Of a stretch of DNA of 64,000 nt, positions 47,910 through 63,434 are shown piece by piece. Within the stretch, counting starts at the first letter, position 1, and the number at the start of each line of letters is the position of its first letter. The position numbers were made by a program, and so were the translations under genes. The DNA is from Candidatus Binatia bacterium (lineage in GTDB: Bacteria > Desulfobacterota > Binatia > UBA9968). The stretch covers positions 13,841 through 77,840 of the forward strand of contig JBHHYU010000006.1 of NCBI GenBank assembly GCA_046757725.1. Direction: 5' to 3'. The notes beneath the pieces are model-generated. The model did not search any database. It saw only the letters and a program-made list of their open reading frames with translations, and was not told where the DNA came from.

Positions 47910-48383
47910 TTACCTCTTACACATCCTTTCAATTATCTGCGTGGAGGAATAGCCTTCCAGGTAAGGAATAACAACCACGCTCCCCCCGTCTTTTTTAACT
48001 AAATCCGCGCCAACGATCTTGCTCTTGTCCCAATCCCCACCTTTGACCAACACATTGGGTCGTAATTCGCGAATGGTCGCGAGCGGATCCGGCTCTTCAA
48101 ATAACGTAACCAAGTCTACCATTTCCAGCGCGGCAATCAACTCCGTTCTATCCTTTTCACGAAGGACCGGCCGATCGGGCCCTTTAATTCGTTTCACTGA
48201 CCTATCGCTGTTCAGAGCAACGATCAGCAGATCGCCCAGTTTGCGAGCCTCTTGAAGTAGATGTAGGTGCCCCGGGTGCAGGACATCAAAGCAACCGTTG
48301 GTGAAAACAACTTTTTGGCCTTCCTTTTTCGCTTTAGCGACAATACTCTTGACCTCGTCGATGCGCCTAATTTTTTCGTGCAC
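47910..48383 (-). CDS. hldC: D-beta-D-heptose-1-phosphate adenylyltransferase (RfaE domain II, cytidylyltransferase fold)
   Basis: [19 protein letters not shown]. Confidence 0.85.
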
Positions 48384-48659
48384 TATAGATAAACGGGTAG
48401 CATGTTCCTAAATCGAAATCAACGACAGGAACCTTCCAACGAAGCTTTGGTGGAACAGAGAAATCGCGTAGTTAGATCAAACACTTTATCCTGCTGGCTT
48501 ACCTGTCTGGCAGTAGCGCATGATCCTTATTGACTCTTTCGACCTTACGCGTTTATATTGCGGGCGATCTCGTGGGGGGGGTAGGGAATTTCTGTAAGTG
48601 CTTTGACTGGCATCGCAAAACATGCGTTATTAGAAACAAACACGTGATAGGTAACGATA

Positions 48660-49580
48660 GTGAGCGGCAAACAGTTTACAGACGATGCCTCTGGCATTAT
48701 CTTGGTCGGCGGCAAAAGCTCGCGTATGGGGCATGCTAAGGCATTGCTTCTCTTTGATGGTGAGCCGCTTATCGTGCACATCGTGCGCAACCTTAGGGGC
48801 CTGTTTGGTGAACTTGTTGTTGTGGCTGCCCCCGAGCAGGAACTGCCCTCGTTGCCGGTGAGGCTGGTACGAGACGAGGTCGCTTATCAGGGGCCGGTAG
48901 GCGGGATTTACTACGGGATCAGTGCGGCGACCAGCAATAACTGCTTTGTAACTTCGTGCGACGTGCCCTTTCTAAATCTTTCCTTGGTTTCATACCTCTT
49001 ATCTCAGATCTCGGATCACGACGTGGTTGTACCCACCTGGGAGGGTCGTCTTCAGCCATTGCAAGCCGTTTACCGGAGAAGTGTCGCCCCAATCCTAGAG
49101 AAGCAGCTGAACCGAGGCGAGTTGCGGCCGGTCTTCCTGTTTCCAAAGGTCCGTACTCGGAAGATTACTGAACAAGAGATCCGTACTGTTGATCCAAAGG
49201 GATTGAGTTTTCTCAATATGAACACGCCGGAGGCATACCAAGCGGCTTTGGCGCGGTGGCACGAGTTGCATGCTCATAGCGACTCAGCTCATGAAAAAGT
49301 TGTTTCTTGTACCGTGGAACTTTTCGGTGTCGCTCGCCTACTGGCAAAGACCCGAAAGGTCTCTCTTGCGCTGCCACAGGAGGCCACTCTCTCCCACGTC
49401 TTTTCGGCTCTGGCCGAAAGGCTGCCGACTTTGGTAGGCCCGGTTATCACCCCTGATAGAAATAACCTCACCAGCGGTAACGCTTGCAACATGAATGGTC
49501 TAGACTTTGTGCGGAACCCGAGCGTCAAGGTCAATCCGGGGGATAGTATTTTTCTTATCTCTGCCGACGCGGGAGGCTGA
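48660..49580 (+). CDS. fusion ORF: an N-terminal MobA-like molybdenum-cofactor nucleotidyltransferase domain and a C-terminal MoaD/ThiS-like beta-grasp domain ending in Gly-Gly
   Basis: N-terminal IILVGGKSSRMG.AKALL MobA motif. The last ~95 aa (VELFGVARLL...PGDSIFLISADAGG) follow the MoaD pattern with a C-terminal GG. Stop is 4 nt before the AOR start. Confidence 0.75.
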   Translation: MSGKQFTDDASGIILVGGKSSRMGHAKALLLFDGEPLIVHIVRNLRGLFGELVVVAAPEQELPSLPVRLVRDEVAYQGPVGGIYYGISAATSNNCFVTSCDVPFLNLSLVSYLLSQISDHDVVVPTWEGRLQPLQAVYRRSVAPILEKQLNRGELRPVFLFPKVRTRKITEQEIRTVDPKGLSFLNMNTPEAYQAALARWHELHAHSDSAHEKVVSCTVELFGVARLLAKTRKVSLALPQEATLSHVFSALAERLPTLVGPVITPDRNNLTSGNACNMNGLDFVRNPSVKVNPGDSIFLISADAGG

Positions 49581-49583
49581 GCG

Positions 49584-51491
49584 ATGTACGGGTTTCATGG
49601 TCGACTGCTCCATATTGATCTTACCACGAGAACTCACCGGTGGCGTAACCTTGAAGAACGCCGCCTGCGGGCGTTCTTAGGCGGCATCGGTCTTGGCACT
49701 AGCCTGCTCTACGATTTCGCCCCATCAGGGGTTGAGCCCCTTTCTCCAGCCAACCCGTTGATCTTTACCAGCGCGCCACTGGTGGGCACCGGTCTCACCA
49801 CCACAGCGAAATTTGCCGTAGTCACCAAATCCCCGCTCACCGGGTTTATCGCTGATTCACTTTCCTCCAGCTTCTTTGCCCTCGAGCTGAAGCGCACCGG
49901 TCTTGACGCTGTGGTGATCACCGGCCAGGCTGCTTCTGCAGTATACCTGTTTATCAGCAACGAAAATGTAGAGATGAGGGAAGGAAAACACCTGTGGGGA
50001 AGAAGCGCCAGCGAGACTGAGACCATCATTCGTTCTGAGCTCAAGGATGAGGGGGTACGGGTAGCGGCCATTGGCAAGGCCGGTGAAAATCGCGTACGTT
50101 TCGCCACTATCAGCAACGAGGGCCGCCATGCTGGGCGGGGCGGCGTTGGCGCGGTGATGGGGTCAAAAAACCTGAAGGCCATTGCTCTGTGTGGCCATGA
50201 TGGGGTCCATGTAGCCGATCCAAAAGGGGTCGAGGCCATCGCCGAGTCAATGCGGCACCGGAGCCTGGGCACGCTAACCGCCAAGTACCGACAGATCGGC
50301 ACTGTGGCAAATCTGGCGGTGTTCAACCGTCTCGGCACCTTGCCCAGTCGAAATTTTCAGCAGTCGACCTTCGACCACGCCGAAGCTCTGAGCGGGGAAA
50401 GCCTAACGGAGAACAACTTCAGCCGCAGGCATGGCTGTGCCTCCTGCACGATCCAGTGCGAACGCCTGTTCAAATCTCTGGCTGGAGAGGAACAACGCCT
50501 GGAATACGAGACTCTCTTTGCCCTCGGTCCCCTTTGTGGCATTGAGGATCCGGATGTGGTCCTACGCGCTGCCCATCTTTGTGACCTCTATGGCCTCGAT
50601 ACCATCAGCACCGGTGGTACACTTGCCTGGGCGATGGAGTGTGCGGAGAAGAGGTTGTTGCCTGAAGCCCCCGGCGGCGGGCTGCGCTTTGGTAATGGTG
50701 ATGGTCTGCTGGCAATTATTCCGGCGATTGCCGGGCGCAGTGGCCTCGGCGCCCTGCTGGCCGAAGGCTCAAGGGGAGCCGCTATGAAGGTTGGCAAAGA
50801 CGCGATGTACTGTGCAATGCACGTCAAGGGGCTGGAACTACCCGGGTATGAACCGCGCAGCATGAAAACCATGGCACTGGGGCTAGCGGTAAGCCCACGC
50901 GGAGCCTGCCACAACCGTTCTGGCGCCTACGAAGCCGACTTCTCAGGACAGGTCGATCGCTTGAGTGGAGATGCTGGCCGGGGCGCTCTGGTTGTGGCCT
51001 CGGAAGATTTTGCTGCGGTGCTGGACTCGCTGATTGTTTGCAAGTTCCTGCGCAAGTGCTTTAACGACTTTTATGCTGAGAGTGCGGATCTGCTCAGCAA
51101 GGTTACCGGCTGGCCTTGCTCTAACGGTGAGCTACGCCGGGTCGGCGAACGGATCCATACGCTCAAGAAACTGTTCAATCTGCGTGAGGGGTGGCGGCCG
51201 GAGGATGACTGGCTACCTCCACGATTGCTGGGCGAGGCCCTCCCGACCGGCGTGGCCCAGGGCGTAGGGTTGGCCCCGGCCGAGCTGCGAGAGATGATCC
51301 AGGGGTATTACCGGGAGAGAGAATGGGATGAGAGCGGTTTTGTTCCGGAAAAGAAGTTAAAGGAGTTGGGACTGCTGATGCCTTACCATGTCTCTCCCTT
51401 TGTACAAGAAACAAAGGGAGGAGACGGAGATGTGCCACCGAACCTCTCTGTCCCTGTCTCAAACCTCTATCTTAAACCAAGGGAGGAATAG
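49584..51491 (+). CDS. aor: aldehyde:ferredoxin oxidoreductase family (tungstopterin enzyme)
   Basis: MYGFHGRLLHIDLTT N-terminus and GLDTISTGGTLAWAMEC region. 635 aa. Confidence 0.85.
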   Translation: MYGFHGRLLHIDLTTRTHRWRNLEERRLRAFLGGIGLGTSLLYDFAPSGVEPLSPANPLIFTSAPLVGTGLTTTAKFAVVTKSPLTGFIADSLSSSFFALELKRTGLDAVVITGQAASAVYLFISNENVEMREGKHLWGRSASETETIIRSELKDEGVRVAAIGKAGENRVRFATISNEGRHAGRGGVGAVMGSKNLKAIALCGHDGVHVADPKGVEAIAESMRHRSLGTLTAKYRQIGTVANLAVFNRLGTLPSRNFQQSTFDHAEALSGESLTENNFSRRHGCASCTIQCERLFKSLAGEEQRLEYETLFALGPLCGIEDPDVVLRAAHLCDLYGLDTISTGGTLAWAMECAEKRLLPEAPGGGLRFGNGDGLLAIIPAIAGRSGLGALLAEGSRGAAMKVGKDAMYCAMHVKGLELPGYEPRSMKTMALGLAVSPRGACHNRSGAYEADFSGQVDRLSGDAGRGALVVASEDFAAVLDSLIVCKFLRKCFNDFYAESADLLSKVTGWPCSNGELRRVGERIHTLKKLFNLREGWRPEDDWLPPRLLGEALPTGVAQGVGLAPAELREMIQGYYREREWDESGFVPEKKLKELGLLMPYHVSPFVQETKGGDGDVPPNLSVPVSNLYLKPREE

Positions 51492-51493
51492 GC

Positions 51494-51673
51494 CATGCCG
51501 ACGGATGAAACACGGCGTTTACTAAAGGTGTTTGGCGTTGCAGTGACCGCGCTCGAGGATGCCGTTGAAAAAAGTGCACCGGCCGAAGAGCTGTCGAGGG
51601 CAAAAACGGAAGTGAAAAACCGCCTTGGGGAGGTTCAGGCCCTCCTGAATAGGCTTAGCTCCAAGAAGGAGTG
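51494..51673 (+). CDS. small 59-aa helical protein, coupled to the end of aor
   Basis: GGGAGG 8 nt upstream of ATG 51494. The coding frame MPTDETRRLLKVFGVAVTALEDAVEKSAPAEELSRAKTEVKNRLGEVQALLNRLSSKKE is below the 60-aa cut-off of the ORF track. Confidence 0.4.
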
Positions 51674-51720
51674 AGCCGCCGGCAGGTTCATATATGCTCC
51701 GGGTCTCAGAGAGGTAAGGC

Positions 51721-52476
51721 ATGTCTGAGTCCAGTTTTTTACAGGGGTTTCGCTTCCTTCAGGAGGGGCTTTACGATCAGGCGATTACGGCCTTTCAAGA
51801 GCTTCTGAAGCATCAACCGGACCTCGCAGAAGGGCATTTTAACCTCGGAAATGCCTACATAGGACAAAGAGATTATACGCGTGCCCTGGTGGCTTATCGG
51901 GAAGCCATCCGTCTGAAGCCTCGATTCCCCCAGGCCTATACCAATGTAGGTTTTATTTATGCGAGGCTGGGGCAGCCTGAGCGAGCCCTGGCAGCTTTTC
52001 ATGAGGCCATTGAGACGCAGCCGGATTTTGCGGAAGCCTACGTGCAGATCGGACTCACGTACCTTGAGCAAGGGCGCTATGATGATGCTGTAGCCAGCTT
52101 ACAGAAGGCGACGCAATACGCTCCGCAGCATGGGGTAGCCTACAGAGCTTTGGGGCTCGCCTATCTGCGATGTGCCGCGTACGCAGAAGCGGCTGAGGCC
52201 TTAAAAACGGCTATGCGGCTACTTCCGGAGGATGCCGAGACGCACTTCCATCTCGGCATGGTGCTGTATGAACAGGGTAATTATGCCGCTGCGTGTGACC
52301 TACTTACCTGTGCGGTGAGCCTCGAGCCTGAAAATCCACAGGCACATTTTAATCTAGCGCTGGCCTATCTTGCCTGGGGTAATAGTAAGAAGGCCGAGGA
52401 GCACTGCGTAAGGCTCCAAGGCCTCGAATCTTCTCTTGCCGCCGAGCTGCGTCAGGAGATTGATCGCTTGCGTTGA
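51721..52476 (+). CDS. tetratricopeptide-repeat protein
   Basis: Repeated 34-aa A/Y/L pattern (e.g. [33 protein letters not shown]). Confidence 0.75.
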
Positions 52477-52489
52477 GGGGTGATAGCGT

Positions 52490-53605
52490 TTACCAAAGCT
52501 GTGACTTCCCTCCTTGCACCCACCAATTGTCGCGTGCACGGATCTCCATTTCATATCCCTTCCCCGATTGCCGTGCCAGCTCATAACACCTCTTGGCCAA
52601 GGCTAAATCAATGATGCCTTGGCCGCCCTGGTTCTTGTAAAGAATGATTTGCCTGTCGTCCGTTCTCCCCTTGGCATTTCCAGCGAGCACATCCGCGATG
52701 TCCACCACCCTGTCCCAGGTGATGACCCCCTCCTGCACGGGCCAGTAGATATCTCCTTGCTGGGAATCTATCGCTTGCTCCTTAGAGAGGGCCACAATGA
52801 AGCTACATCTCCTGAGGGTCCCATCATCGATCTCTCTGCGCGGGGCGGAGATGTTTCCGCTCTTGACCAATTCGATATTGCTGCCGATGACTGAAATTAT
52901 ATACTGCCCTTCTTCGAGCCAGGAACCGTCAATGACAGGCACATTGGTATTCGTCATGCACAGGATAATATCGACATCTTTGGCCGCCAACCGAGGATCA
53001 TCCACGGTTTCAATCGGCACACCGGTGGTCTCACCCATCCTCGTGGCAAATGCCTCTCTATGGGATGGCGTTGGGCTGTAGACCTTCGCGCTCTCAATCT
53101 TTCTCAGCTCTGTTAGGCCTAGAAAGGTTGAGCTGGCTTGGTGACCTGAGCCAAAAATACCAACCCGTGTAGCATCGCGGCGCGCAAAGTGATCAAGGCC
53201 GGCCAAGCTGGTAGCAGGAGTGCGCAAGTCCGCCGTACCCCCTACGTGTCGGGGGCGATGAGCCATTATTCCCAAAAGAGTTCCGCTATCGACATCGTAA
53301 ATCAGCGCAAGCTCAGTCTGGTCGGGATTATAAGGAGGTCTTTTCTGGACAGTCCCTTGTATGGCCTTGCGATGGAGGGCCACCTGGGCTCCGATAGCGC
53401 CGTAACTCGACGATCCGCCCGCGTAGATATTCAGAACGGTATCATAGGGTACTTCTCCCATATTTCGGTGGATGTGTAGCCTCTTGCGGGGAGCATTGGT
53501 CCCTAGCGGACTGGAAATGTCCTTCAGGGCGCTTTCAGCAATGCTGACGGCTTCTTTCAATGGAATAAGTTCATCTACATCATCTGAATGAAAAAAAAGC
53601 GCCAT
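52490..53605 (-). CDS. ornithine cyclodeaminase / mu-crystallin family protein
   Basis: Rossmann GIFGSGHQA and overall OCD-family layout. Confidence 0.7.
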   Translation of the reverse strand: MALFFHSDDVDELIPLKEAVSIAESALKDISSPLGTNAPRKRLHIHRNMGEVPYDTVLNIYAGGSSSYGAIGAQVALHRKAIQGTVQKRPPYNPDQTELALIYDVDSGTLLGIMAHRPRHVGGTADLRTPATSLAGLDHFARRDATRVGIFGSGHQASSTFLGLTELRKIESAKVYSPTPSHREAFATRMGETTGVPIETVDDPRLAAKDVDIILCMTNTNVPVIDGSWLEEGQYIISVIGSNIELVKSGNISAPRREIDDGTLRRCSFIVALSKEQAIDSQQGDIYWPVQEGVITWDRVVDIADVLAGNAKGRTDDRQIILYKNQGGQGIIDLALAKRCYELARQSGKGYEMEIRARDNWWVQGGKSQLW

Positions 53606-54902: not shown

Positions 54903-55886
54903 CTACCGGTTATTCCACCCCTCACCAAACGCTTCGGCCTCCCTAAATCCTTCTTCCCTCCATTCATCAATGAGTTCGCGGACAGGAATTTTACGATGCA
55001 TCAGCCCTTTCATGAGGCTCTTATACAGAGGCGCAGATTCCGTCTGGGCGTTAACGGGGCATACGGTTAGACAAATCTTGCAACCTTCGTAGTCCTCGAA
55101 ATAGGGGCGGCAAGCCGGGGTATCCACATGCCAGCGAACGGTACCAAAAACCTCTTGTTTCTTGGGAACAATGGCATTGCCGGGACAGAAATTAGTACAC
55201 GCATTGCAGCGCAAGCACAAATCATCAAAACCGTAATCGGCAGGCGCCGGTTCGGCAACGAGCGGTATCTCAGTTGTCACAACACCAAGACGCACACTGG
55301 GGCCAAATTTCTTGGTAATCAAGGACCCATGGCGACCCAACTCGCCTAATCCGGCCTTCCAGGCAATGGGTATAAAGAGAGCGGGCCCTTCATTCGGATA
55401 GCCCACGGCATGGTAACCAAACGAACGAATAAATTGCGCCAACCGCACGGATAGATCCGAGAGCCTGTAGTAAACCCTATGAACTTCCATTTGGGACAAC
55501 GGACCCAACCGTTTCATCTCATCGAAATCCATGTGAATGGCGAAGGAGATCCCACGGTTGTGACCTTGAGGGGGTGCAGTACCGCGGACAAAGTCGAACC
55601 GATCCACGGGGGCAATACCGACGAGATCGGCACCCAGCTGCAGGGCGGTCTCCTTTACGAATCGTGTTACTCCGTCCCAATCCTTCGTTTCCAGTTTTTC
55701 GGGATTGAGGGGGCCATCGTAAAGACCGCGTTGCGCATGCTCGGCCCTCATGAACATGAAGCGACGGGTTTGCGGGTGCCGCTTCGCCTTCGTGGCTTCA
55801 CCGCGCTTTTTATCTGGGAACGGCGACTGCTTGATGGCCGGTTCTCTACCAGGTGTGAAGATGATACCTTTAGGCTCCATGGGCAC
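54903..55886 (-). CDS. QueG/RdhA-superfamily protein with two [4Fe-4S] ferredoxin motifs (epoxyqueuosine-reductase-like)
   Basis: CLRCNACTNFCPGNAI and CKICLTVCPVN motifs. N-terminal VKETALQLGADLVGIAPVD resembles the QueG N-terminus. The start appears to be GTG. Confidence 0.6.
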   Translation of the reverse strand: MPMEPKGIIFTPGREPAIKQSPFPDKKRGEATKAKRHPQTRRFMFMRAEHAQRGLYDGPLNPEKLETKDWDGVTRFVKETALQLGADLVGIAPVDRFDFVRGTAPPQGHNRGISFAIHMDFDEMKRLGPLSQMEVHRVYYRLSDLSVRLAQFIRSFGYHAVGYPNEGPALFIPIAWKAGLGELGRHGSLITKKFGPSVRLGVVTTEIPLVAEPAPADYGFDDLCLRCNACTNFCPGNAIVPKKQEVFGTVRWHVDTPACRPYFEDYEGCKICLTVCPVNAQTESAPLYKSLMKGLMHRKIPVRELIDEWREEGFREAEAFGEGWNNR

Positions 55887-60189: not shown

Positions 60190-62151
60190 ATGGCAGCCAA
60201 ATGGGGGCTTTTCCTCTGTAATTGTCACCGCACACTTTCCCTCGATCCTGAGCGGCTTGTCCTTCCTACCGTCCCCAGCGTTCTCTCATTCGCAAGGGAT
60301 CCAGAGACTGAGGCTCCTAAATTTGCCTCAAGTGTCCAGAGTGAGGGACCCGATCAGGTACTGATCAGTTGCTGTGCCGGTCCCGGTCTGTTTAATCAGG
60401 CGATCAATAATGGCACGGCACCGTCTACGAAGCTGCGATTTGTTGATCTAAAAGGCCTCTGTTTTCAGGTCCATTCGGATCCCGCAGAGGCCCATGCCAA
60501 AGCAAACCGGTTGTTGTGTGCCGCGATGGAAACCGCCGAAGCGGAGACACAGGTGACCTATAATCCCTTGAATGTCGGGGGTCGTATCGTTATTGCGACC
60601 GATTCGACCCAAGGGATACAGTTCGCAGAAAAACTCCGAGACATCGCCCAGACAAGTTTTATTATCGCCCCGGATGTCCTGCCGGATCTGTCCCCGACGC
60701 TGGAGGTGACCAGGGGTCGGGTTCTGGGTGTCCAGGGCTCCTTGGGCGGCTTTCGGGTGACCGTTGAGACTAATGACGGGCCTAAACGGGGTCATCGGGA
60801 CCTGCAGGCGGATCAATTCGTATCCATATCAGAGAACGACACACCGGGTATTAAACGGCGTACGGGCTGTCATTTGCTTGTCAAGCCGGACAGGGCTGAC
60901 CTCGACGAACTTGCAATGCGCGTCCGTGACCTCATCGGTGACTTTGTCAAGCCGGTTCAGGTGGCATATAACGGCGATATCTGTGCGGGAGGGACGGCAG
61001 ACCAGAAGGGGTGTGGAATCTGCATAACCTCGTGTCCGTACGACGCCATCAGCCGCGACCCGCAAAATCATTTTCGGATGCAGGTTGATCACATGGCTTG
61101 CGAGGGGTGCGGCGCCTGTGCCTCGGCTTGTCCCACAAGCTCCCTGCGCTTTACGGAGCCCTCCCCGCATGAGCTCTATACGCGGCTCGCCGCTCTGCTC
61201 GGGCACAGACCAGGGCACAGTAACGGGGAACGTTTGACTGTTCTCTTCCATTGCGGCGAGCAGGGCAGGCGTGTACTCGAAGAGGCAGGCCGGCGGCCAC
61301 TGCCATACCCGGCGAGCGTGTTTCCCGTCGAGGTGCCGTGTCTGCGCTATGTTTCCGAGGCCAACATCCTGGCCGCTTTCCGCTTGGGTGCGGCCGGAGT
61401 CGGTCTCCTGGGCTGCGAGACATGCCAGCACGGGGAGCGGGAATTACTCTATCAGAAAGTTGACTTCTGCCGTCTGACTCTGGATGCCTTTGGCATGGGC
61501 TCTGAACGGTTGCGCCTCATGACTGCAGACCATGGTACGGAGGTGGAAGTCGTCACAGCCCTATCGAGCTTTGCCGAGAAGCTGGATAAGGCGCCTATCC
61601 ACTGGGACGGCAAACGCATCGATTCCTGGGGTAACCGGGAGGTAGTAGCCGACGCGATTCGGACCTTTATCGAACAGACAGGCCGGGAGCCCGGACGCAG
61701 GGCCCTCGATCCCTCGCAGCCCTTTGCTCTTGCGGATGTTGAGAGCTCTGGTTGTACCCTGTGTCGCTCCTGCGTGAATGTTTGTCCGGTACATGCCTTC
61801 AGCATCGAGGAGGGAAAAGGCTCATTGAGGTCTAAGGCCATTGCCTGTGTGGCCTGTGGTCTCTGCGAGAAGGTCTGCCCTGAAAACGTAATCACGCTTC
61901 GGCGGGAAATTTTCTTTGAACGGGACGCCCTCGATTACCAGACAGTAGTAGAAGACCCAATGGTCTCGTGTGGCAAGTGCGGGAAGCCCTATATCAACAA
62001 AAAGGCTCTGGAGACCATTGAGACTCGGCTGTTTTCACTTGAGTCGTTGATGGATACTTTTAGCGGTAATCGGCGAAAACTGCTCAGATTGTGTCCTGAC
62101 TGCCGTGCCGCAGAAGCCATGCTGGAAGTGGAGAAAGGCTGGAAACCGTGA
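60190..62151 (+). CDS. polyferredoxin with an embedded MvhD/FlpD-like domain (two 2x[4Fe-4S] modules plus a C-terminal CxxC...CxxC)
   Basis: Four CxxCxxCxxxCP motifs (CGICITSCP, CEGCGACASACP, CTLCRSCVNVCP, CVACGLCEKVCP). MvhD-like block VLFHCGEQG...VPCLRYVSEANILAAFRLGAAGVGLLGCETCQH. Confidence 0.75.
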   Translation: MAAKWGLFLCNCHRTLSLDPERLVLPTVPSVLSFARDPETEAPKFASSVQSEGPDQVLISCCAGPGLFNQAINNGTAPSTKLRFVDLKGLCFQVHSDPAEAHAKANRLLCAAMETAEAETQVTYNPLNVGGRIVIATDSTQGIQFAEKLRDIAQTSFIIAPDVLPDLSPTLEVTRGRVLGVQGSLGGFRVTVETNDGPKRGHRDLQADQFVSISENDTPGIKRRTGCHLLVKPDRADLDELAMRVRDLIGDFVKPVQVAYNGDICAGGTADQKGCGICITSCPYDAISRDPQNHFRMQVDHMACEGCGACASACPTSSLRFTEPSPHELYTRLAALLGHRPGHSNGERLTVLFHCGEQGRRVLEEAGRRPLPYPASVFPVEVPCLRYVSEANILAAFRLGAAGVGLLGCETCQHGERELLYQKVDFCRLTLDAFGMGSERLRLMTADHGTEVEVVTALSSFAEKLDKAPIHWDGKRIDSWGNREVVADAIRTFIEQTGREPGRRALDPSQPFALADVESSGCTLCRSCVNVCPVHAFSIEEGKGSLRSKAIACVACGLCEKVCPENVITLRREIFFERDALDYQTVVEDPMVSCGKCGKPYINKKALETIETRLFSLESLMDTFSGNRRKLLRLCPDCRAAEAMLEVEKGWKP

Positions 62152-62699: not shown

Positions 62700-63434
62700 A
62701 TGGATCAGGTAACGGTCAGAGACAAAGCGCTGGTACAGTTCCGCTACAACTATTACGGCTTGTTCGTTCGGTTCTGGTCGAGGGAACCGGCAGCGGAATT
62801 CATTGCGTCTCTAGAAGAGGGTATTCAAGATCGAATGGAGGCTGCTGCTACGCTTCACCCGCGCATGGGGGAAGGGTGGCGGCACATTCGGCAGTTTCTA
62901 GCCCAAGGCAAACCCGAGGAGGCAGCCGAAGAGTTTACCGAGCTTTTTCTCAGTCCCTTTGGTTCTCAAGTCAACCCCTATGAGTCCTATTATCTCACGG
63001 GCCACCTGTTCAGGGCTCCCCTTGTGGTCCTTCGTGGCTTCCTTGAACGTCTCGGTTTGGAGAGAGAACAGCAAGAATTTTCTGAGCCTGAAGATGTGCT
63101 GGCGTTCGAACTGGAAGTCATGCGCTGGCTGATTGGCAAGCAGATGGCGACAGAAAATGAAGGGGAAGAAACGAGTTGGTTGCAACTTCAGGCTGATTTT
63201 CTCAGAGAGCATTTGCTCGTCTGGGTTCCCACCTGTACGGAGGATATAGAGAGGGCTCAACAGGCGCACTTCTATCGTGGCGCTGCCATAATGCTCCGTG
63301 CCTTTCTTGAGTTGGAGCACACTCTCTTCCGCGACTGGGGACTGGATCAGATAGTGTCCCTTGCGGAGGCTAGAAAACGTTACGGGGTGAAACCAATCTG
63401 GAAAGGTCCAACCTTTGATGTATCCGGCGATTAG
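62700..63434 (+). CDS. TorD/DmsD/NarJ-family redox-enzyme maturation chaperone
   Basis: ELFLSPFGSQVNPYESYYLTGHLF region typical of the TorD family. Confidence 0.7.
   Translation: MDQVTVRDKALVQFRYNYYGLFVRFWSREPAAEFIASLEEGIQDRMEAAATLHPRMGEGWRHIRQFLAQGKPEEAAEEFTELFLSPFGSQVNPYESYYLTGHLFRAPLVVLRGFLERLGLEREQQEFSEPEDVLAFELEVMRWLIGKQMATENEGEETSWLQLQADFLREHLLVWVPTCTEDIERAQQAHFYRGAAIMLRAFLELEHTLFRDWGLDQIVSLAEARKRYGVKPIWKGPTFDVSGD

What the first reader, a model, noticed from the sequence alone, without database searches (positions are those of the whole stretch)
48660..51673. MobA-MoaD-like fusion directly upstream of a tungsten-type aldehyde:ferredoxin oxidoreductase, followed by a coupled 59-aa ORF
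ORF 48660-49580 begins with a canonical MobA nucleotidyltransferase N-terminus (LVGGKSSRMG.AKALL). After about 200 aa it continues into a ~95-aa segment with the MoaD/ThiS beta-grasp pattern, ending in the diagnostic C-terminal Gly-Gly (…PGDSIFLISADAGG). Its stop is 4 nt before the AOR start. AOR-family enzymes carry a tungsto-bis-pyranopterin cofactor without a guanine dinucleotide (established knowledge). A MobA-like domain fused to a sulfur-carrier-like domain is therefore a non-obvious accessory. It could be a dedicated cofactor insertion/maturation factor, or a MoaD-like subunit of the kind reported in some AOR operons. Immediately after aor, a GGGAGG-preceded 59-aa helical ORF (51494-51673) was missed by the 60-aa ORF cut-off. 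It may be an additional small subunit or chaperone.
Basis: partly seen in the sequence, partly recalled or inferred. Interest (0 to 1): 0.55.

Follow-up and report, generated by a model that had tools for sequence, protein, structure and literature searches.

The report
MobA–MoaD fusion coupled to AOR
A single gene that joins two molybdenum/tungsten-cofactor biosynthesis proteins (MobA and a MoaD-like sulfur carrier) sits directly in front of an aldehyde oxidoreductase gene; the same trio recurs across several bacterial phyla, so it is most likely a dedicated cofactor-maturation module that appears not to have been described.

Summary
ORF 48660-49580 (306 aa) is a real MobA-like plus MoaD-like fusion, not a frameshift artefact. 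The best 120 database relatives are nearly all full-length and all end in DAGG. In 80 species-representative genomes, mostly Binatia, 79 reading frames end the same way.

An AOR-family gene follows on the same strand in 73 of 78 informative loci, and 60 of these have a 1-5 nt gap. The Gly-Gly codons usually form the AOR Shine-Dalgarno sequence.

A divergent standalone branch of the same MoaD-like family, taken from metagenomes, precedes an AOR gene in 55 of 55 informative loci. A separate mobA gene usually lies just upstream, for example in Dehalococcoidia and Planctomycetes. The window therefore carries the fused version of a widespread mobA-moaD-aor module.

The best reading is dedicated maturation of the nucleotide-free bis-pyranopterin cofactor. 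Published work supports both halves: MobA makes bis-Mo-MPT for the AOR homologue YdhV, and MoaD-like AorD/E raise AOR activity. A housekeeping role, for example serving nearby formate dehydrogenases, is not excluded.

The 59-aa ORF (51495-51674) is a real, conserved gene encoding a helical hairpin. It has about 2,500 relatives, all annotated as hypothetical. It accompanies AOR in only 31 of 80 genomes and also occurs without AOR. Its function is unknown.

This is a new variant of a known kind, of moderate interest.

The parts
48660..49580 (+). Fusion gene, 306 aa: MobA-like domain, variable linker and MoaD-like domain ending in Gly-Gly
   Evidence: ORF listing. There is a 100% identical NCBI protein from a Candidatus Binatia MAG, and 120 relatives that are nearly all full-length. 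All 120 end in DAGG. 79 of 80 genome loci end in DAGG*.
48693..49274 (+). MobA-like nucleotidyltransferase domain (about residues 12-205)
   Evidence: Pfam NTP_transf_3 at E 6e-39. The predicted structure matches A. fulgidus and E. coli MobA with target TM-scores of 0.84-0.87. The alignment to 1e5k keeps the LxGGxxxRMG, D71, CD(101)xP, R156 and NxNTPE positions, and these are invariant in the family.
49266..49301 (+). Inter-domain linker (about residues 203-214), variable in length and sequence among relatives
   Evidence: Alignment A1 shows insertions of up to about 30 residues here. The AF2 pLDDT is below 50 for residues 208-231.
49302..49577 (+). MoaD/ThiS-family sulfur-carrier-like domain with C-terminal ...SADAGG
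   Evidence: Pfam ThiS matches 219-306 end to end but below the cut-off. In the library of 1.84 billion representatives, 348 proteins match with E <= 0.001. Most of the 150 listed are standalone proteins of roughly 90-125 aa, and 126 of the 150 end in GG. The family profile matches MoaD 2m19 at 2e-8, SAMP1 at 2e-6 and P. furiosus MoaD 1vjk at 3e-6.
49571..49576 (+). GGGAGG Shine-Dalgarno sequence for aor, formed by the Ala-Gly-Gly codons of the fusion
   Evidence: Sequence. GGAGG lies within the last codons in 46 of 62 coupled loci, and the stop-to-start gap is 1-5 nt in 60 of those 62.
49584..51491 (+). Aldehyde:ferredoxin oxidoreductase family enzyme (635 aa; the last roughly 37 residues are not conserved)
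   Evidence: AFOR_N and AFOR_C. The best solved relative is P. furiosus AOR 1aor at E 1.6e-122 over the full length. The three [4Fe-4S] cysteines CxxCxxxC, the fourth cysteine, and the Glu313 and His448 equivalents all align (residue roles from memory).
51481..51486 (+). GGGAGG Shine-Dalgarno sequence inside the 3' end of aor, 8 nt before the small ORF's ATG
   Evidence: Sequence.
51495..51674 (+). Conserved 59-aa protein, a two-helix hairpin of unknown function
   Evidence: Found after aor in 30 of the 80 genome loci (and 6.7 kb away in L064), and also in L002-L004. 2559 database relatives, all named 'hypothetical', with no Pfam domain. Differences by codon position run 7381/4670/16775, and invariant residues use up to 5 different codons. 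AF2 pLDDT 95, helices at 4-25 and 30-57.
51721..52476 (+). TPR-repeat protein 47 nt downstream; possibly co-transcribed, but only sporadically conserved in this position
   Evidence: Pfam TPR families. tblastn finds a homologue downstream of the cassette in L004, L006, L015 and L047 only. No terminator-like site lies between it and the small ORF.

Best explanation
Genes 48660-51674 form a translationally coupled cassette in a Candidatus Binatia genome. The first product is a natural fusion of a MobA-like enzyme and a MoaD-like sulfur-carrier domain, joined by a flexible linker. The carrier domain sits at the C-terminus, so its Gly-Gly end stays free.

The most likely role is dedicated maturation of the pyranopterin cofactor of the AOR encoded immediately downstream. 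Three steps are inferred:
1. The Gly-Gly end of the MoaD-like domain is adenylated and thiocarboxylated by a MoeB/ThiF-type enzyme. Together with MoaE it converts cPMP to molybdopterin.
2. After metal insertion by MoeA, the MobA-like domain joins two metal-MPT units into the nucleotide-free bis-pyranopterin cofactor. This is the activity reported for E. coli MobA in supplying YdhV.
3. The cofactor is handed to nascent apo-AOR.

Shown here: the domain identities, the conservation of the fusion, its near-obligate coupling to aor, and the existence of the same three functions as separate adjacent genes in other phyla.

Inferred: every biochemical step, the metal (W or Mo), and the specificity for AOR.

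The 59-aa gene is real. My best guess is a small helical accessory or stabilising partner, and this guess is weakly founded.
For: Fusion is real and conserved:
- The best 120 relatives cover 96-100% of the query and all end in DAGG.
- 122 species genomes encode it. Among the best 80, 79 frames end in DAGG*.
- The linker varies in length while both domains are conserved.

Domain identities:
- MobA: Pfam E 6e-39, fold match to solved MobA, motif residues retained.
- MoaD: family profile matches solved MoaD and SAMP1 end to end, and 34 of 62 family members hit Pfam ThiS.

Coupling to aor:
- AOR follows in 73 of 78 informative genome loci.
- The gap is 1-5 nt in 60 loci, and a GGAGG is built from the Gly-Gly codons in 46 of 62.

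Independent lineages:
- In a divergent standalone MoaD-like branch (about 32-44% identical to the window's domain; loci from marine and other metagenomes), 55 of 55 informative loci have aor 1-91 nt downstream.
- 35 of those loci have a separate mobA directly upstream and 2 are fused.
- Gene calls confirm mobA/moaD-like/aor as three genes in Dehalococcoidia and Planctomycetes MAGs.

Other context:
- Recurrent neighbours include MoeA, tungstate/molybdate-type ABC transporters and FDH operons.
- The AOR looks functional: 1aor at E 1.6e-122, with cluster and active-site residues aligned.

Literature:
- MobA catalyses bis-Mo-MPT formation, and YdhV binds bis-Mo-MPT but not bis-MGD (PMC9103625).
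- aorD/aorE are MoaD-like genes in the Aromatoleum aor operon (PMC6365974).
- Adding aorDE to the expression plasmid raised specific activity from 4.5 to 16 U/mg, and to 85 U/mg with additional tungstate (PMC9295118).
Against: - No biochemical evidence exists for this protein family.
- The MobA domain keeps all GTP-site motif residues, so it could equally be an ordinary guanylyltransferase.
- FdnGHI-like formate dehydrogenase operons, which need bis-MGD, directly flank the cassette in several relatives.
- Five of 78 loci carry the fusion in a housekeeping context with no aor within 4-10 kb.
- I could not determine whether these genomes hold a second mobA or moaD. No moaE or moeB gene was among the common neighbour families.
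- All NCBIfam MobA equivalog models score below their cut-offs, and the window's MoaD-like domain scores below the Pfam ThiS cut-off.
- Homology of this MoaD-like family to AorD/AorE was not tested.
Confidence: 0.6

Rival explanations
1. Housekeeping 'Rosetta-stone' fusion. The protein is simply the organism's general MobA and MoaD, joined because both act in one pathway. It serves all Mo/W enzymes, including bis-MGD formate dehydrogenases. Its position before aor reflects clustering of Mo/W genes rather than specificity for AOR.
For: - The GTP-site and catalytic motif residues of MobA are all retained.
- FDH-like operons (Molybdopterin, Fer4_11, NrfD, FdhE) lie directly upstream (L002, L003, L087, L088) or downstream (L149-L151) of the cassette.
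- FdhE is the commonest upstream neighbour, in 8 of 38 loci.
- Four related loci place the fusion among HU, MerR, PCMT, M23 peptidase and MetE-like genes with no aor.
- No second mobA or moaD is seen in the 64-kb window or in any 20-kb locus.
Against: - The 1-5 nt coupling to aor is kept in 60 loci whatever lies upstream. The window itself has no FDH nearby.
- In distant phyla the separate mobA and moaD-like genes again sit directly before aor.
- The MoaD-like family is small (348 matches in 1.84 billion representatives). In the branch that was sampled it is essentially always next to aor, which is not what a general MoaD would show.
Confidence: 0.25
2. The MoaD-like domain is not the MPT-synthase carrier but a dedicated sulfur donor or a ubiquitin-like tag. 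In one version, its thiocarboxylate sulfurates the metal centre of the MobA-bound cofactor, a terminal sulfido ligand, comparable to the role of FdhD for FDH. In another version it is conjugated to a target protein in the manner of SAMP1.
For: - The closest solved relatives include SAMP1, which acts both in Moco synthesis and in protein conjugation (NCBIfam SAMP1 E 0.0064).
- The family forms a distinct, AOR-linked branch rather than typical MoaD. Many members miss the Pfam ThiS threshold.
- Tethering the domain to MobA would place the sulfur donor next to the assembled cofactor. This last point is an inference.
Against: No E1-like, MoaE-like or JAMM protease gene is recurrently linked. There is no direct evidence for a sulfido ligand requirement here. 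The simpler MPT-synthase role explains the Gly-Gly end equally well.
Confidence: 0.1
3. The fusion is an assembly or sequencing artefact, that is, a lost stop codon or frameshift between adjacent mobA and moaD genes in this MAG.
For: In other phyla the two are separate adjacent genes. The source is a metagenome-assembled genome.
Against: The same continuous frame is found in 120 of 120 best database clusters from NCBI, JGI, ENA and Logan assemblies. It is also found in 79 of 80 species genomes, including closed long-read chromosomes. An in-frame linker of variable length joins the domains.
Confidence: 0.01

Closest known systems
MobA (molybdenum cofactor guanylyltransferase / bis-Mo-MPT synthase, E. 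coli; PDB 1e5k)
   Same: Same fold and domain: Pfam NTP_transf_3, with Foldseek target TM-score 0.84. It retains LxGGxxxRMG, the Asp71 and Asp101 equivalents, Arg156 and the NxNTPE motif. MobA is reported to build the nucleotide-free bis-Mo-MPT used by the AOR-family protein YdhV (PMC9103625).
   Different: About 29% identity. It scores below every NCBIfam MobA equivalog cut-off. It carries a C-terminal MoaD-like domain, and its gene is coupled to aor rather than to mobB.
MoaD / SAMP1 (MPT-synthase small subunit, ThiS-family sulfur carriers; PDB 2m19, 1vjk, 4hro)
   Same: The family profile aligns end to end, including the terminal Gly-Gly. The size is about 90 residues. Standalone members are annotated as MoaD/ThiS.
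   Different: It forms a distinct branch with its own motifs (ELFG.ARL, CN.NG..FVR, S.DAGG or SSQAGG). This sequence is below the Pfam ThiS threshold. The domain is fused behind MobA and linked to aor, not to moaE.
AorD/AorE of Aromatoleum aromaticum (MoaD-like genes in the aorABCDE operon)
   Same: These are MoaD-like accessory genes inside an aor operon and are proposed W-cofactor maturation factors. Co-expression increased AOR specific activity (PMC6365974, PMC9295118).
   Different: They lie downstream of aorABC, they are two separate small proteins, and no MobA is described in that operon. Sequence relationship to the present family was not tested.
MobA-MobB bifunctional proteins (NCBIfam PRK14489 family)
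   Same: MobA is fused at its C-terminus to another Moco-pathway protein. This is the best NCBIfam match for residues 9-199 (E 1.6e-44).
   Different: The partner domain there is the MobB GTPase, not a sulfur carrier. The score of 152 bits is far below the 379-bit cut-off.
MoaX-type MoaD-MoaE fusions (Mycobacterium; recalled from memory, not checked here)
   Same: A MoaD domain is fused to another Moco biosynthesis enzyme.
   Different: There MoaD is N-terminal and must be cleaved after Gly-Gly to act. Here it is C-terminal, so the Gly-Gly end is free without any processing.

Membership tests
MobA (Moco guanylyltransferase) | MobA-like NTP-transferase domain and fold | tested here: met
   Pfam PF12804 at E 6e-39, residues 12-158. 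Foldseek best hits are MobA 3ngw and 1e5k, target TM-score 0.84-0.87.
MobA (Moco guanylyltransferase) | Signature residues (LxGGxxxRMG, Lys25, Asp71, Asp101, Arg156, Asn180/182 in E. coli numbering; residue list recalled from the MobA structural literature) | tested here: met
   The alignment to 1e5k shows these positions retained, except that Gly22 is replaced by His. The corresponding columns are invariant in 36 relatives.
MobA (Moco guanylyltransferase) | Score above the curated equivalog thresholds | tested here: not met
   NCBIfam scores against cut-offs: PRK14489.1-1 152.5 vs 379; PRK00317 121.5 vs 164; TIGR02665 99.5 vs 151.85.
MobA (Moco guanylyltransferase) | GTP-dependent MGD formation and/or bis-MPT formation | not testable with these tools
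   Needs enzymology.
MoaD/ThiS sulfur carriers | Match to the ThiS/MoaD family model | tested here: inconclusive
   The window domain scores 15.8-19.1 bits against the Pfam cut-off of 22.5. However, 34 of 62 family members match at E <= 0.01, and the family profile matches solved MoaD at 2e-8.
MoaD/ThiS sulfur carriers | Gly-Gly at the extreme C-terminus | tested here: met
   The window protein ends ...ADAGG*. So do 120 of 120 relatives, 79 of 80 genome loci, and 126 of 150 distant representatives.
MoaD/ThiS sulfur carriers | Beta-grasp fold | tested here: inconclusive
   The AF2 model gives pLDDT 69-89 for about residues 232-302, with helix and strand elements. The first hairpin (208-231) has pLDDT below 50. 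No separate fold search of this domain was made.
MoaD/ThiS sulfur carriers | C-terminal thiocarboxylation and MPT-synthase activity with MoaE | not testable with these tools
   Needs biochemistry. No moaE or moeB gene was found nearby.
AOR family (tungsto- or molybdo-bis-pyranopterin oxidoreductases) | AFOR_N plus AFOR_C domains, [4Fe-4S] cysteines and active-site Glu/His | tested here: met
   Pfam E 2e-69 and 4e-116. 1aor at E 1.6e-122. CxxCxxxC, the fourth Cys, and the Glu313 and His448 equivalents all align.
AOR family (tungsto- or molybdo-bis-pyranopterin oxidoreductases) | Tungsten (rather than molybdenum) at the active site | not testable with these tools
   Only indirect evidence: a PBP_like_2/ABC/TOBE transporter lies next to the cassette in some relatives.
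AorD/AorE-type AOR maturation factors | Sequence homology to A. aromaticum AorD/AorE (WP_041646405, WP_041646407) | not tested
   These sequences could not be retrieved with the available tools. Only the shared description (MoaD-like, in an aor operon) is known.

The most novel reading that the evidence does not exclude
The fusion may be more than a convenience join. It could be a self-contained, AOR-specific cofactor assembly and delivery machine. In this reading the tethered MoaD-like thiocarboxylate acts on the cofactor while MobA holds it, for example by installing a terminal sulfido ligand on W. Alternatively it channels freshly made MPT straight into bis-MPT assembly. The complex would then dock on nascent AOR, with the 59-aa hairpin as an adaptor. 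That would define a separate tungsten-cofactor maturation route, parallel to the canonical Moco pathway.
Probability: 0.12. Interest if true: 0.75.

Novelty: new variant of a known kind. Interest (0 to 1): 0.45.

Why it matters
How AOR-family enzymes obtain their nucleotide-free bis-pyranopterin cofactor is poorly understood. A recent AOR paper states that few studies address tungstopterin maturation (PMC10816221).

A mobA/moaD-like/aor module is conserved, translationally coupled and found in several phyla, and here two of its parts are fused into one protein. This gives a concrete and testable prediction: a dedicated MobA paralogue assembles the bis-MPT cofactor for AOR, and a dedicated MoaD paralogue feeds it.

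There is also practical value. AORs are wanted as biocatalysts for acid reduction, and heterologous activity is limited by cofactor loading. Co-expressing this single accessory gene is an obvious thing to try.

The finding also flags an unannotated family of about 2,500 small proteins.

Tried and rejected
- Frameshift or assembly artefact: rejected.
- Moco/Tuco riboswitch, or any Rfam family, upstream of the cassette: no match anywhere in the 64-kb window at gathering thresholds.
- Promoter and terminator scan of 48300-52600: one TTGACT-18-TATATT site at 48530-48559. Counts were no higher than in shuffled sequence, and no terminator-like site follows the small ORF. This was uninformative.
- Small ORF identity: Pfam and NCBIfam gave only sub-threshold noise (Arc_MA at E 0.027). 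A fold search of a confident helical-hairpin model gave no match better than E 0.37. No function could be assigned.
- Test of whether the unknown 122-139 aa gene beside the small ORF in Rokubacteria matches the 135-aa gene upstream of the fusion in L087: no similarity.
- A metagenome scan with the broad standalone alignment A6 failed because it had no conserved stretch. It was repeated with the narrower alignment A7.
- Search for other Moco biosynthesis genes near the cassette in the window (53.6-64 kb): none found. Only a NarJ/TorD-type chaperone and ferredoxin-like proteins turned up.
- Search for a second MobA or MoaD in the window or in the fetched loci: none. This covers at most 64 kb per genome, so it does not settle the housekeeping question.
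- Literature search for a described MobA-MoaD fusion, or for Binatia AOR: nothing found in the searchable library.


Full report
**1. What is there**

The window comes from a Candidatus Binatia metagenome-assembled genome. The 306-aa product of ORF 48660-49580 is 100% identical to an NCBI protein from such a MAG, named only 'NTP transferase domain-containing protein'.

The ORF starts with GTG and reads MSGKQFTDDASGIILVGGKSSRMGHAKALL..., ending ...PGDSIFLISADAGG*. Its TGA stop is at 49578-49580.

Three nucleotides later, at 49584, a 635-aa gene begins that carries the AFOR_N and AFOR_C domains (E 2e-69 and 4e-116). Three nucleotides after that gene's TAG stop (51489-51491), a 59-aa ORF runs from 51495 to 51674.

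Both downstream starts are preceded by GGGAGG (49571-49576 and 51481-51486). The first of these is made from the Ala-Gly-Gly codons of the fusion.

**2. The two halves of the fusion**

*MobA half.* This half is clear from the single sequence.
- Pfam NTP_transf_3 matches residues 12-158 at E 6e-39.
- The best NCBIfam matches are all MobA models.
- The AlphaFold model (mean pLDDT 81; above 90 over most of residues 30-180) superposes on A. fulgidus and E. coli MobA with target TM-scores of 0.84-0.87.
- A residue-by-residue alignment with E. coli MobA 1e5k retains LxGGxxxRMG, the Asp71, Asp101 and Arg156 equivalents and the NxNTPE motif. These columns are invariant among 36 relatives.
- It nevertheless scores below every curated MobA equivalog cut-off, so 'MobA-like' is the safe label.

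*MoaD half.* This half is weak from the single sequence: ThiS at E 0.021 (below the gathering score) and SAMP1 at E 0.0064, although both alignments run end to end. It becomes firm at family level.
- Residues 205-306 alone find 348 proteins among 1.84 billion cluster representatives.
- Most of the 150 listed are standalone proteins of roughly 90-125 aa whose C-terminus aligns with that of the query. Of these 150, 126 end in Gly-Gly.
- A profile of 62 of them matches solved MoaD 2m19 (2e-8), SAMP1 (2e-6), P. furiosus MoaD 1vjk (3e-6) and the T. thermophilus MoaD-related protein, each through to the terminal GG.
- 34 of the 62 reach Pfam ThiS at E <= 0.01.

**3. The fusion is genuine**

The best 120 database relatives are 64-74% identical and cover 96-100% of the query. 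They come from NCBI, JGI, ENA and Logan assemblies, and every one ends in DAGG. JGI already labels several of them 'MobA / molybdopterin converting factor small subunit'.

The alignment shows two conserved blocks joined by a linker that varies by up to about 30 residues. The model has no confidence in that linker.

A scan of one genome per GTDB species found 122 genomes encoding the protein. The best 80 are mostly labelled Binatia, or 'Deltaproteobacteria'/'Thermodesulfobacteriota'. A few carry other labels, which may reflect binning or naming problems. In 79 of the 80 the frame ends in DAGG*. The exception, L072, is interrupted.

More divergent fused representatives also exist: P0179, P0186 and P0241.

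**4. Linkage to aor**

Of the 80 genome loci, two end too close to the fusion to be informative. Of the remaining 78, 73 have an AOR gene downstream on the same strand.
- In 60 loci the stop-to-start gap is 1-5 nt.
- In 2 loci it is 13 nt.
- In 11 loci it is 86-2360 nt.

In 46 of the 62 tightly coupled loci the Gly-Gly codons are GGA-GGN, which produces a GGAGG just before the aor start. The coupling is therefore maintained at the nucleotide level.

Five loci lack aor within 4-10 kb. Four of these share a housekeeping synteny of HU, MerR, the fusion, PCMT, an M23 peptidase and a MetE-like gene.

Outside the fusion-aor pair, the neighbourhood varies:

| Side | Loci surveyed | Recurrent neighbours (loci) |
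|---|---|---|
| Upstream | 38 | FdhE (8), NrfD (7), MoeA (4), molybdopterin oxidoreductase (3-4) |
| Downstream | 42 | NuoE/F-like flavoprotein (7), PBP_like / PBP_like_2 / ABC transporter of tungstate/molybdate type (5-6), molybdopterin oxidoreductase (5) |

The window itself has none of these within reach. It has only a TPR protein downstream and, 11 kb further on, a NarJ/TorD-type chaperone.

**5. The same module unfused in other lineages**

I scanned metagenome contigs with a divergent standalone branch of the MoaD-like family. These proteins end in SSQAGG and are about 32-44% identical to the window's domain. The scan returned 60 loci.
- All 55 loci that extend far enough have an AOR gene (50-66% identical to the window's) starting 1-91 nt after the MoaD-like stop.
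- 35 loci have a separate mobA-like gene immediately upstream.
- 2 loci have a mobA-moaD fusion.
- 11 loci have no MobA within the available upstream sequence.

Independent gene calls show mobA (204-250 aa), moaD-like (93-103 aa) and aor as three consecutive genes in a Dehalococcoidia MAG and a Planctomycetes MAG. In the Planctomycetes case the first two genes overlap by 4 nt.

The window therefore carries the fused form of a widespread three-function module. This is the strongest argument that the two accessory functions are tied to AOR.

**6. The AOR**

Its closest solved relative is P. furiosus AOR (1aor, E 1.6e-122, full length). Next come other bacterial and archaeal AORs, then FOR, WOR5 and BamB. 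The CxxCxxxC motif plus the fourth cysteine of the [4Fe-4S] cluster, and the Glu313 and His448 equivalents, all align (residue roles recalled from the 1aor literature).

Sequence cannot tell whether the metal is W or Mo.

**7. Mechanism**

Published work supplies both halves of a coherent model.
- MobA is reported to catalyse formation of bis-Mo-MPT as well as GMP addition. The E. coli AOR-family protein YdhV binds bis-Mo-MPT and does not accept bis-MGD (PMC9103625).
- The Aromatoleum aor operon carries two MoaD-like genes, aorD and aorE (PMC6365974). Including them in an expression plasmid raised AOR specific activity from 4.5 to 16 U/mg, and to 85 U/mg with additional tungstate (PMC9295118).

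I therefore propose that the C-terminal domain acts as the thiocarboxylate sulfur carrier for molybdopterin synthesis, and that the MobA-like domain assembles the bis-pyranopterin cofactor for the co-translated AOR. Placing the carrier at the C-terminus leaves its Gly-Gly end free without any processing.

All biochemical steps are inferred. My confidence that this is a dedicated AOR maturation factor is about 0.6.

The main rival (about 0.25) is that this is simply the organism's only MobA and MoaD. Three points favour that view:
- the MobA domain keeps its GTP-site residues;
- bis-MGD-dependent FDH operons flank the cassette in several relatives;
- five loci lack aor.

I could not inventory whole genomes, which is the decisive computation.

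**8. The 59-aa ORF**

It is a real gene.
- A profile search finds it in 31 of the 80 genome loci. In 30 of these it lies directly after aor or within about 250 nt of it, and it is also present in L002-L004.
- Among 34 orthologues, differences by codon position are 7381/4670/16775. Invariant residues are encoded by up to five different codons, and the other forward frames are closed by stop codons.
- The family has 2559 members at E <= 0.01. All are annotated 'hypothetical' and none has a Pfam domain.
- It is predicted with pLDDT 95 to be a two-helix hairpin. No structural match is informative.

It is absent from over half of the fusion-aor loci. In Rokubacteria it occurs with no AOR or fusion within 6 kb. 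A role tied strictly to AOR is therefore doubtful. A small accessory or adaptor protein is a guess, not a finding.

**9. Novelty and verdict**

I found no paper describing a MobA-MoaD fusion or a mobA-moaD-aor module. The library searched is incomplete, however, and automated annotation already recognises both domains.

The components and their general roles are known. The fused architecture, the aor-linked MoaD-like branch and the conserved translational coupling are new variants.

Interest is moderate (0.45). The finding is not surprising in kind, but it makes the poorly studied question of AOR cofactor maturation directly testable.

Noticed in passing
window 49571-49576; L005-L084: The codons for the invariant C-terminal Gly-Gly of the fusion double as the Shine-Dalgarno sequence of aor. 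They are GGA-GGN, giving GGAGG, in 46 of 62 tightly coupled loci.
   Followed up: yes
window 62700-63434 and 60190-62151: A NarJ/TorD-family (Nitrate_red_del) chaperone lies here, preceded by a 653-aa polyferredoxin with an FlpD/MvhD domain. This suggests another molybdo- or tungsto-enzyme system at or beyond the right end of the window.
   Followed up: partly
L149 6421-9624, L150, L151 3889-7191: Directly after the small ORF comes an FdnGHI-like operon with NrfD and FdhE. Its alpha subunit is called in two pieces (191 aa plus about 850 aa). This could reflect an in-frame UGA (selenocysteine) or a sequencing error; I did not check which.
   Followed up: no
L037 12713-14407, and L045, L055, L065, L071, L048, L051: In the Binatia lineage whose fusion ends in SDAGG, aor is followed on the same strand by a roughly 565-aa NuoE/NuoF-like flavoprotein (2Fe-2S_thioredx, Complex1_51K, NADH_4Fe-4S). 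This hints at an NAD(P)-coupled AOR, loosely comparable to AorABC.
   Followed up: partly
L004 11628-15164: In this close relative, a regulator (HTH_17 + PBP_like), a PBP_like_2 binding protein, a permease/ATPase and a TOBE protein lie between the small ORF and the TPR gene. Together they resemble a tungstate/molybdate ABC uptake system. In the window, the TPR gene follows the small ORF directly.
   Followed up: partly
L085 5629-6323, L086 1791-2536: In Rokubacteria contigs a 67%-identical copy of the 59-aa protein lies between an unknown 122-139 aa gene and an overlapping 48-aa ORF. No AOR or MobA gene is nearby.
   Followed up: partly
L002 7597-8004, L087 1097-1504, L088 2559-2966: A conserved 135-aa ORF with no Pfam match sits between FdhE and the fusion gene in several relatives.
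   Followed up: partly
P0144 (432 aa) and P0214 (150 aa): These database 'proteins' merge a MoaD-like sequence with the AOR N-terminus, or the reverse. They are probably frameshifted gene calls across the 1-5 nt junction. They illustrate how tight the spacing between the two genes is.
   Followed up: no
window 54903-55886 (- strand): A 327-aa protein with a C-terminal 4Fe-4S dicluster domain and an otherwise unassigned N-terminal part. It lies 3 kb downstream of the cassette on the opposite strand.
   Followed up: no
window 1-64000: No Rfam family reaches its gathering score anywhere in the 64-kb window. There is no tRNA, riboswitch or other known RNA.
   Followed up: yes
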